A stretch of 1,211 bases of DNA from Naegleria gruberi (Eukaryota), in NCBI GenBank assembly GCA_000004985.1, contig GG739498.1; one strand, given 5' to 3'. This document shows, piece by piece, positions 987 through 1,085 of the stretch. Position 1 is the first letter of the stretch. Each line of letters starts with the position of its first letter. The notes below the pieces were generated by a model that ran no database searches, had not been told where the DNA came from, and was given only the letters and a program-made list of their open reading frames with translations. Both the position numbers and the translations under genes were made by a program.

Positions 987-1033
987 GTAAGTTAATCTTG
1001 ATGAATTTATGTGGATAATTGGATCATGAATAG
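987..1033 (+). other. Intron 2a (47 nt), gtaagtt...gaatag
   Basis: Donor gtaagtt at 987-993; the ORF reading through hits TAA at 993-995. Acceptor tAG at 1032-1033 directly precedes the 6-nt micro-exon. Its length of 47 nt matches the other introns (44, 46 nt). Confidence 0.5.
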
Positions 1034-1039
1034 TTTTCT
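1034..1039 (+). CDS. 6-nt micro-exon TTTTCT (Phe-Ser) completing the conserved CGSCWAF motif
   Basis: tag|TTTTCT|gtaagtt: acceptor AG at 1032-1033, donor gtaagtt at 1040-1046, identical to the gene's other donors. Including it gives CWA-FS-ASSVLADRFCI, with 12 residues between Trp30 and Cys43 exactly as in human cathepsin B (CWAFGAVEAISDRICI). Skipping it leaves a 2-residue deletion and loses the near-invariant Phe after CWA. Phase 0 on both sides, so either model stays in frame. Confidence 0.5.
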
Positions 1040-1085
1040 GTAAGTTGTTTTAATTGTGTGGTTGGTTGACTAGAAATCTCAATAG
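1040..1085 (+). other. Intron 2b (46 nt), gtaagtt...tcaatag
   Basis: Donor gtaagtt at 1040-1046. An in-frame TAG at 1083-1085 rules out any earlier exon start. Acceptor aatAG at 1084-1085. Contains ttgac 16 nt from the 3' end, and intron 1 has ttgac 2 nt before its AG. Confidence 0.55.

What the first reader, a model, noticed from the sequence alone, without database searches (positions are those of the whole stretch)
1031..1046. Candidate 6-nt micro-exon (Phe-Ser) inside what would otherwise be a 99-nt intron
Treating 987..1085 as a single intron gives CGSCWA|ASSVLADRFCI, which is 2 residues short in the helix that carries the catalytic Cys and lacks the nearly invariant Phe of Q..CGSCWAF. 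Exactly in the middle sits tag|TTTTCT|gtaagtt. The acceptor AG, the phase-0 6-nt exon encoding F-S, and a donor identical to the gene's other three donors (gtaagtt) together restore CWAFS-ASSV.. and the canonical 12-residue spacing to Cys43. The split also turns one atypical 99-nt intron into two of 47 and 46 nt, matching intron 1 (44 nt). Six-nt micro-exons are rare and are routinely missed by gene predictors. Skipping it would still be in frame, so both isoforms could exist.
Basis: partly seen in the sequence, partly recalled or inferred. Interest (0 to 1): 0.7.

Follow-up and report, generated by a model that had tools for sequence, protein, structure and literature searches.

The report
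Six-base exon in Naegleria cathepsin B
The six bases TTTTCT at 1034-1039 are very probably a real, tiny exon that supplies the Phe-Ser next to the catalytic cysteine of a Naegleria gruberi cathepsin-B-like protease, but public gene models already include it, so it is a correct reading and not a discovery.

Summary
The window is a 1211-bp Naegleria gruberi scaffold carrying the 5' half of a cathepsin-B-like gene on the + strand. In detail: tag|TTTTCT|gtaagtt sits at 1031-1046. It splits 987-1085 into introns of 47 and 46 nt and restores CGSCWA-FS-ASSVLADRFCI.

- **Chance:** a 6-nt Phe-first exon flanked by AG and GTAAGT arises in about 5 of 100,000 shuffled introns.
- **Best splice path:** of 375 GT..AG paths across the region, the micro-exon path scores highest against an independent family profile (121.1 bits, versus 106.9 for one 99-nt intron).
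- **Family constraint:** 126 of 130 motif-bearing homologues have Ala-Phe at this position, and none has the shortened Cys-to-Cys spacing.
- **Conservation:** the Willaertia magna orthologue has the same TTTTCT exon between phase-0 introns at the same two codon boundaries, although its intron interiors have diverged to near background.
- **Prior annotation:** the deposited protein for this scaffold (XP_002667994.1), the full-length copy (XP_002670339.1) and the Willaertia model all contain the Phe-Ser. The exon is therefore already annotated.
- **Context:** exons of 7 to 19 nt occur in other Heterolobosean cathepsin B genes, so this one is not exceptional in the clade.

I could not obtain transcript evidence.

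The parts
487..735 (+). Exon 1: start codon, signal peptide and most of the propeptide (MAKLQ...SLADMTN), 249 nt, ends in phase 0
   Evidence: Weak Propeptide_C1 hit over residues 52-88. Homologous exon in L002 and upstream of the truncated W. magna model.
736..779 (+). Intron 1, 44 nt, GTAAGTT...GACAG
   Evidence: The L002 allele has a 6-nt insertion here, as expected for non-coding sequence.
780..986 (+). Exon 2, 207 nt, ends ...NCGSCWA; carries the catalytic Cys codon (TGT 978-980)
   Evidence: Peptidase_C1 match begins at residue 125. Aligns to cathepsin B residues 2 onward.
987..1033 (+). Intron 2a, 47 nt, GTAAGTT...AATAG, phase 0, 3 codons after the catalytic Cys
   Evidence: Same position and phase in the W. 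magna orthologue (46 nt). Interior is only 64% identical.
1034..1039 (+). Micro-exon TTTTCT = Phe-Ser, the residues after Cys-Trp-Ala at the start of the central catalytic helix
   Evidence: Identical 6/6 in W. magna L001:3218-3223 and in L002:775-780.
1040..1085 (+). Intron 2b, 46 nt, GTAAGTT...AATAG, phase 0, 5 codons after the catalytic Cys
   Evidence: W. magna has 48 nt at the same position, with interior 52% identical. The L002 allele is 52 nt because of a 6-nt insertion.
1086..1197 (+). Exon 3, 112 nt (ASSVLADRFCIKSGGKVNVDLSPQFMVSCSGQNNGCN + first base of Gly), ends in phase 1
   Evidence: Same 112-nt exon in W. magna and L002. 88% DNA identity to W. magna.
1198..1211 (+). Start of intron 3 (GTAAGTA...), cut by the end of the scaffold
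   Evidence: The corresponding intron is 48 nt in L002 and 41 nt in W. magna.

Best explanation
TTTTCT at 1034-1039 is a genuine, constitutively included 6-nt coding exon of a Naegleria gruberi cathepsin-B-like cysteine protease gene. It supplies Phe-Ser immediately after Cys-Trp-Ala. This keeps the central helix that starts at the catalytic Cys in register and keeps the family's usual spacing (14 residues) to the next disulfide Cys.

Shown here:
- The exon has an AG acceptor and a consensus GTAAGT donor.
- It is the best-scoring splice path across the region.
- It is conserved in position, phase, length and sequence in another genus.
- It is already used by the deposited gene models.

Inferred, not shown:
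- Each flanking intron (47 and 46 nt, the usual size for this gene) is recognised on its own by intron definition.
- A 6-nt exon is too short to hold an acceptor complex and a donor complex at once, so the two introns are probably removed one after the other. The first removal fuses the micro-exon to a normal-sized neighbouring exon.
For: - Coordinates and translation.
- Chance of this configuration: 5.5e-5.
- Pfam Peptidase_C1 score: 68.8 bits with the exon and 57.2 without.
- Solved structures: gap-free alignment of CGSCWAFSASSVLADRFCI to CGSCWAFGAVEAISDRICI of solved cathepsin B.
- Homologue panel: 126 of 130 motif-bearing homologues have AF after CxxCW. All 108 that keep the downstream Cys have it at the same spacing.
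- Splice-path enumeration: 375 GT..AG paths give 52 in-frame products. The micro-exon path ranks first at 121.1 bits, against 113.5 for the runner-up (which needs a 2-nt exon) and 106.9 for a single intron.
- W. magna orthologue (79% identical protein): introns at the same +3 and +5 codon boundaries, both phase 0, with an identical TTTTCT. The flanking intron interiors are 52-64% identical and not distinguishable from shuffles, while the flanking exons are 77-88% identical.
- Independent N. gruberi-type metagenome contig (L002): same exon, with indels only in introns and upstream DNA. The full 7-exon gene encodes an intact 349-aa preproenzyme.
- Deposited proteins XP_002667994.1 and XP_002670339.1 contain FS. 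P0001 threads through the window only via 1034-1039.
- The sequential-splicing idea for very small exons is the one discussed for plant micro-exons in PMC8831610.
Against: - I examined no transcript, EST or RNA-seq read. The 90% cluster holding this protein has no transcript-derived member.
- Conservation evidence comes from a single other genus plus near-identical N. gruberi alleles.
- Two metagenome scans found no further copies.
- No orthologue above 46% identity appeared in N. fowleri or N. lovaniensis.
- The gene models that include the exon may themselves be homology-driven predictions, so they are not independent of the protein-family argument.
- The order of intron removal is pure inference.
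Confidence: 0.9

Rival explanations
1. 987-1085 is one 99-nt intron. The internal AG..GTAAGTT is never used, so the protein lacks Phe-Ser.
For: The single-intron product is in frame, stop-free and still clears the Pfam threshold (57.2 bits; 106.9 bits on the custom profile). A 99-nt intron is unremarkable for N. gruberi, whose mean intron length is 203 bp.
Against: - The configuration has a 5.5e-5 chance expectation.
- The 14-nt block AG|TTTTCT|GTAAGT is identical in W. magna at the same codon boundaries, while the surrounding intron sequence is near saturation.
- No homologue in the panel has the shortened spacing.
- All other introns of this gene are 41-76 nt.
Confidence: 0.03
2. The 6-nt exon is a regulated cassette: included and skipped mRNAs both accumulate, and the skipped form gives a protein with a distinct role.
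For: Skipping preserves the frame. Exon skipping has been detected in N. gruberi transcriptomes at some level (PMC6142364).
Against: - A two-residue deletion just after the catalytic Cys shifts the helix register. That spacing is never seen in 108 homologues.
- The exon has a full consensus donor like the gene's constitutive exons.
- In non-animal eukaryotes intron retention, not skipping, dominates.
- No data here address isoform ratios.
Confidence: 0.05
3. The window copy is a dead or assembly-artefact duplicate, so its splice pattern is irrelevant to biology.
For: It is a 1211-bp unplaced scaffold. Its product is about 98% identical to the full-length XP_002670339.1 on a 245-kb scaffold, which is typical of an unmerged haplotype.
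Against: The reading frame, all splice sites and the start codon are intact. The differences from L002 and P0016 are a few substitutions and intron or upstream indels. Even if it is a haplotig, the same micro-exon is present in the main copy's protein, so the conclusion about the exon stands.
Confidence: 0.02

Closest known systems
Conserved constitutive coding micro-exons of 15 nt or less, as catalogued in plants (e.g. the 9-nt exon in the GH32 invertase N-terminal domain and the 9-nt VYLG exon in AP2 genes; PMC8831610)
   Same: A very short internal exon lies within a conserved protein domain. It has canonical AG/GT flanks, and its size and phase are conserved across taxa. Flanking introns probably have to be spliced sequentially.
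   Different: The organism is a heterolobosean amoeba, not a plant. The flanking introns are very short (46-47 nt). This case was not missed by annotation. Conservation is shown only across two genera, not back to a deep ancestor.
Animal neuronal micro-exons (3-27 nt alternatively spliced cassettes; my own knowledge, e.g. Irimia et al. 2014; see also PMC7821500)
   Same: Length class, and preservation of the reading frame.
   Different: Those are regulated cassettes that depend on specific splicing factors and long flanking introns, and they usually sit on protein surfaces. This exon encodes buried core residues of a catalytic helix, and nothing suggests regulated skipping.
Other small exons in Heterolobosean cathepsin B paralogues (N. 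fowleri FDP41_011344: 7, 15 and 16 nt; W. magna ABK040_016192: 19 nt)
   Same: Same gene family and clade. Tiny exons encode conserved family motifs and are flanked by canonical GT..AG introns.
   Different: The intron positions differ. None of the paralogues has introns at +3 or +5 codons after the catalytic Cys, and two N. fowleri paralogues encode CWAFSAS on one uninterrupted exon. The 6-nt exon is the shortest of the set.

Membership tests
Coding micro-exon (internal exon of 15 nt or less) | Internal exon of 15 nt or less, bounded by a canonical AG acceptor and GT donor | tested here: met
   TAG|TTTTCT|GTAAGTT at 1031-1046.
Coding micro-exon (internal exon of 15 nt or less) | Inclusion keeps the reading frame and improves the match to the protein family | tested here: met
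   Phase 0 on both sides. +11.6 bits on Pfam PF00112. Top of 52 in-frame splice products on an independent profile.
Coding micro-exon (internal exon of 15 nt or less) | Size, phase and position conserved in orthologues while the flanking introns diverge | tested here: met
   W. magna L001:3218-3223 has the same 6 nt, with introns at the same +3 and +5 phase-0 positions. Intron interiors are 52-64% identical, with z of 0.4-1.7 against shuffles. Only one other genus was available.
Coding micro-exon (internal exon of 15 nt or less) | Presence of the exon in mature mRNA | not testable with these tools
   No EST or RNA-seq access. The protein cluster has no transcript-derived member.
Papain-family (C1A) cathepsin-B-like peptidase | Peptidase_C1 domain above the curated threshold | tested here: met
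   PF00112 scores 68.8 bits against a 20.7 cut-off for the window-encoded part. The full-length copy matches solved cathepsin B chains at E of 1e-52 to 1e-54.
Papain-family (C1A) cathepsin-B-like peptidase | Catalytic Cys in a CGSCWAF context, plus catalytic His and Asn | tested here: met
   The Cys is in the window (codon 978-980). His (GGHAVK) and Asn (ANSWG) are outside the window but present and aligned in the full-length copies P0016 and L002.
Papain-family (C1A) cathepsin-B-like peptidase | Full-length occluding loop with the His-His pair that gives cathepsin B its dipeptidyl-carboxypeptidase activity | tested here: inconclusive
   The alignment to T. brucei CatB (3mor) shows about 18 residues missing from P0016 in the loop region. 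P0016 has no HH there by eye. The loop lies outside the window and I did not analyse it structurally.

The most novel reading that the evidence does not exclude
The most novel reading not excluded has two parts. First, the Phe-Ser exon could be skipped under some condition, producing a register-shifted, catalytically disabled protease-like protein with a regulatory or decoy role. Second, the active-site helix region of Heterolobosean cathepsin B genes could be a hotspot of recent intron gain: 6-, 7-, 15-, 16- and 19-nt exons occur at non-homologous positions in different paralogues. If so, the family would be a useful natural system for studying how intron-definition spliceosomes handle exons too short to be bound at both ends.
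Probability: 0.06. Interest if true: 0.4.

Novelty: already known. Interest (0 to 1): 0.15.

Why it matters
It matters little beyond annotation quality. The exon is needed to read the protease correctly, because without it the catalytic helix is two residues short. The public N. gruberi and W. magna models already have it. The modest wider point is that Heterolobosean cathepsin B genes carry several very small exons between short introns. They are a handy test case for micro-exon-aware gene finders and for asking how two introns only 6 nt apart are spliced.

Tried and rejected
- **Intron duplication origin:** the two flanking introns are no more alike than shuffles in either species (z = -0.45 and 0.56). 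Rejected.
- **Other splice paths:** I enumerated all 375 GT..AG one- or two-intron paths, and none beats the micro-exon path.
- **More orthologues from metagenomes:** two DNA-pattern scans allowing synonymous variation found nothing.
- **Genomic loci of the N. gruberi reference proteins:** P0001, P0016 and P0020 are not on record in the contig index. I therefore inferred the main-scaffold copy's exon structure from its protein and from the L002 contig.
- **Literature:** searches for Naegleria plus microexon gave two irrelevant papers, and no paper discusses this exon.
- **Other features in the window:** Rfam and tRNA scans were empty.
- **Structure prediction of the skipped form:** not run. 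AlphaFold is not a reliable judge of a two-residue deletion, and the tool restricts inputs.

Full report
**What the window is.** The 1211 bases are AT-rich (33.4% GC). They encode, on the + strand, the 5' half of a papain-family protease. A homology search with the spliced product returned a 191-aa 'predicted protein, partial [Naegleria gruberi]' (P0001 = EFC35250.1 / XP_002667994.1) at 100% identity and 100% coverage, on a contig of exactly 1211 bp. The window is therefore that N. gruberi scaffold. The same 90% cluster holds a full-length 350-aa 'cathepsin B-like cysteine proteinase' (P0016 = XP_002670339.1) on a 245-kb scaffold. It differs from the window product by a few substitutions and one extra residue in the signal peptide. 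The window is probably an unmerged second haplotype of that gene.

**Checking the observation.** Reading the sequence confirms every coordinate:
- exon 1, 487-735
- intron 1, 736-779 (44 nt)
- exon 2, 780-986, ending TGT GGA TCT TGT TGG GCA
- GTAAGTT at 987
- TAG|TTTTCT|GTAAGTT at 1031-1046
- AATAG|GCAAGT at 1081-1091
- exon 3, 1086-1197
- a further donor at 1198

The split gives introns of 47 and 46 nt. One detail is overstated: the donor at 1198 is GTAAGTA, not GTAAGTT. All four GTAAGT in the window lie on the + strand at predicted donors, and none lies on the - strand. TTTTCT is the only hexamer in 987-1085 that could encode Phe-Ser.

**Is it more than chance?** I shuffled the interior of the 99-nt interval 200,000 times, preserving dinucleotides. 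An internal GTAAGT occurs in 2.7% of shuffles. An AG followed by any open in-frame exon of 3-30 nt and then GTAAGT occurs in 0.34%. An exon of exactly 6 nt occurs in 0.046%, and a 6-nt exon beginning with Phe in 0.0055%.

**Protein-level test.** With the exon, Pfam Peptidase_C1 scores 68.8 bits; without it, 57.2. With the exon, CGSCWAFSASSVLADRFCI aligns without gaps to CGSCWAFGAVEAISDRICI of solved bovine and human cathepsin B.

Among the homologues collected in two searches, 126 of 130 that carry the CxxCW motif continue with Ala-Phe. All 108 that retain the downstream disulfide Cys have it at the same distance, and none is two residues shorter.

To avoid relying on existing annotations, I enumerated all 375 GT..AG one- or two-intron paths between exon 2 and exon 3. 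Fifty-two give in-frame, stop-free products. I scored each against an HMM built from 106 homologues, excluding the N. gruberi and Willaertia orthologues. The micro-exon path ranks first at 121.1 bits. The runner-up (113.5 bits) needs a 2-nt exon and weak sites. The single 99-nt intron gives 106.9 bits.

**Comparative test.** The closest relative outside N. gruberi is a Willaertia magna protein (P0002, 79% identical). Both species are placed in the family Naegleriidae. Its locus reads TGGGCA|gtaagtt..(46 nt)..aaag|TTTTCT|gtaagta..(48 nt)..acag|GCAAGTAGTG.

Exact threading of the annotated proteins through their loci puts introns at +3 and +5 codons after the catalytic Cys, both phase 0, in both species. 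The downstream exon sizes are also identical: 112, 322, 62 and 89 nt.

DNA identity between the two genera is 77-88% in the flanking exons, 6/6 in the micro-exon, and only 52-64% in the intron interiors. Those interiors are not distinguishable from shuffled sequence, with z of 1.7 and 0.4. The 14-nt block AG|TTTTCT|GTAAGT is thus an island of identity in otherwise unconstrained sequence.

An independent metagenome-assembled contig of an N. gruberi-type strain (L002) has the same exon. Its indels relative to the window fall only in introns 1 and 2b and in upstream DNA. It yields the whole gene: 7 exons, 6 introns of 41-76 nt, and an intact 349-aa preproenzyme ending at TAA.

**Already known.** P0001, P0016 and the W. 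magna model P0002 all read CWAFSASSV. P0001 can be threaded through the window only by using 1034-1039. The exon is therefore already part of the public gene models of both species. I found no paper that discusses this exon.

**How unusual is it in this clade?** Two N. fowleri paralogues encode CGSCWAFSAS on one uninterrupted exon, so the intron pair is specific to the N. gruberi/W. magna orthologue group. Tiny exons are nevertheless common in the family:
- A W. magna paralogue has a 19-nt exon encoding (W)AFSISE between introns at +1 (phase 2) and +8 (phase 0). The second of these introns is shared with N. lovaniensis.
- An N. fowleri paralogue has 7-, 15- and 16-nt exons that encode the conserved GKC, CIHPIR and GFSVYQ motifs.

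N. gruberi has 35 C01 cathepsins, with expansions in the cathepsin B clade (PMC8296547).

**Mechanism.** The following is shown: canonical acceptor and consensus donor, conservation across genera, and the coding requirement. The rest is inferred. With flanking introns of 46-47 nt, the normal size for this gene, each intron is most likely recognised as a unit (intron definition). Six nucleotides cannot accommodate acceptor-side and donor-side complexes at the same time, so the two introns are probably removed sequentially. The first removal joins the micro-exon to a full-size exon. This is the argument made for plant micro-exons in PMC8831610. The two introns are not copies of one another, so a recent intron duplication does not explain the arrangement.

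**The skipped isoform.** Skipping is in frame. However, it deletes two residues directly after Cys-Trp-Ala in the central helix, a spacing not seen in any of 108 homologues. I regard a functional skipped isoform as unlikely, though it is untested.

**Family placement.** The full-length copy matches solved cathepsin B and trypanosome cathepsin-B-like enzymes at E of about 1e-52 to 1e-54, with the His and Asn of the catalytic triad in place. It lacks about 18 residues in the occluding-loop region. 'Cathepsin-B-like' is therefore the safe label.

**Verdict.** The exon is already in the public annotations and is of a well-known kind, so interest is low. The decisive missing piece is junction-spanning RNA-seq reads, for example from PRJEB23822.

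Noticed in passing
L001:2721-2929 (W. magna JBEGDK010000030.1): The W. magna gene model P0002 (254 aa, starting at L001:3001) appears N-terminally truncated. An upstream ATG at 2721 opens an exon ending at ...TCCAAG|gtaggt (2929). That exon encodes a signal peptide and propeptide homologous to window exon 1, and it is followed by a short intron into the annotated exon.
   Followed up: partly
L004:1414-1432 (W. magna paralogue P0047); L007 (N. lovaniensis P0034): A different small exon of 19 nt, encoding (W)AFSISE, covers the same helix in a paralogue. It lies between introns at +1 (phase 2) and +8 (phase 0) codons after the catalytic Cys. Only the +8 intron is shared with the N. lovaniensis counterpart.
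   Followed up: partly
L005:1493-1499, 1578-1592, 2289-2304 (N. fowleri FDP41_011344): Exons of 7, 15 and 16 nt encode the conserved motifs GKC, CIHPIR and GFSVYQ. Micro-exons therefore recur in Heterolobosean cathepsin B genes at non-homologous positions.
   Followed up: partly
L006 (N. lovaniensis P0131, C9374_012414): This paralogue reads DCGCWAF in place of the usual CGSCWAF, one residue short before the catalytic Cys. It is either a real variant or a mis-set splice or assembly error.
   Followed up: no
window 454-486: An in-frame ATG at 454 lies 11 codons upstream of the annotated start at 487 (MKLLSETIRKK-MAKLQ...). The W. magna orthologue has no upstream ATG before its A-rich start context, so 487 is probably the true start.
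   Followed up: partly
window, whole scaffold, versus P0016 and L002: The window is a near-identical second copy of the XP_002670339.1 gene (a few substitutions, plus a 1-residue indel in the signal peptide). This suggests an unmerged haplotype. Relative to L002 it carries an extra stretch of about 26 nt in upstream DNA near 291-316.
   Followed up: partly
homologue panel: The nearest N. fowleri and N. lovaniensis proteins are only 44-46% identical, whereas W. magna has a 79% orthologue. The orthologue may have been lost, or left unannotated, in those Naegleria species.
   Followed up: no
window 987-1033 versus L001:3224-3271: The interior of N. gruberi intron 2a resembles W. magna intron 2b more than shuffles do (z = 3.4, 1 of 8 comparisons), while the homologous pairs do not. 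This is probably a multiple-testing fluke.
   Followed up: no
P0016 residues ~215-235 (outside the window): The occluding-loop region is about 18 residues shorter than in T. brucei CatB, with no His-His pair visible. The enzyme may therefore lack typical cathepsin B exopeptidase behaviour.
   Followed up: no
L002:945-950 versus window 1198-1203: The donor after exon 3 is GTTAGT in the metagenome allele but GTAAGT in the window. This shows that the non-consensus GTTAGT donor (also seen in W. magna introns) is tolerated in this gene.
   Followed up: no
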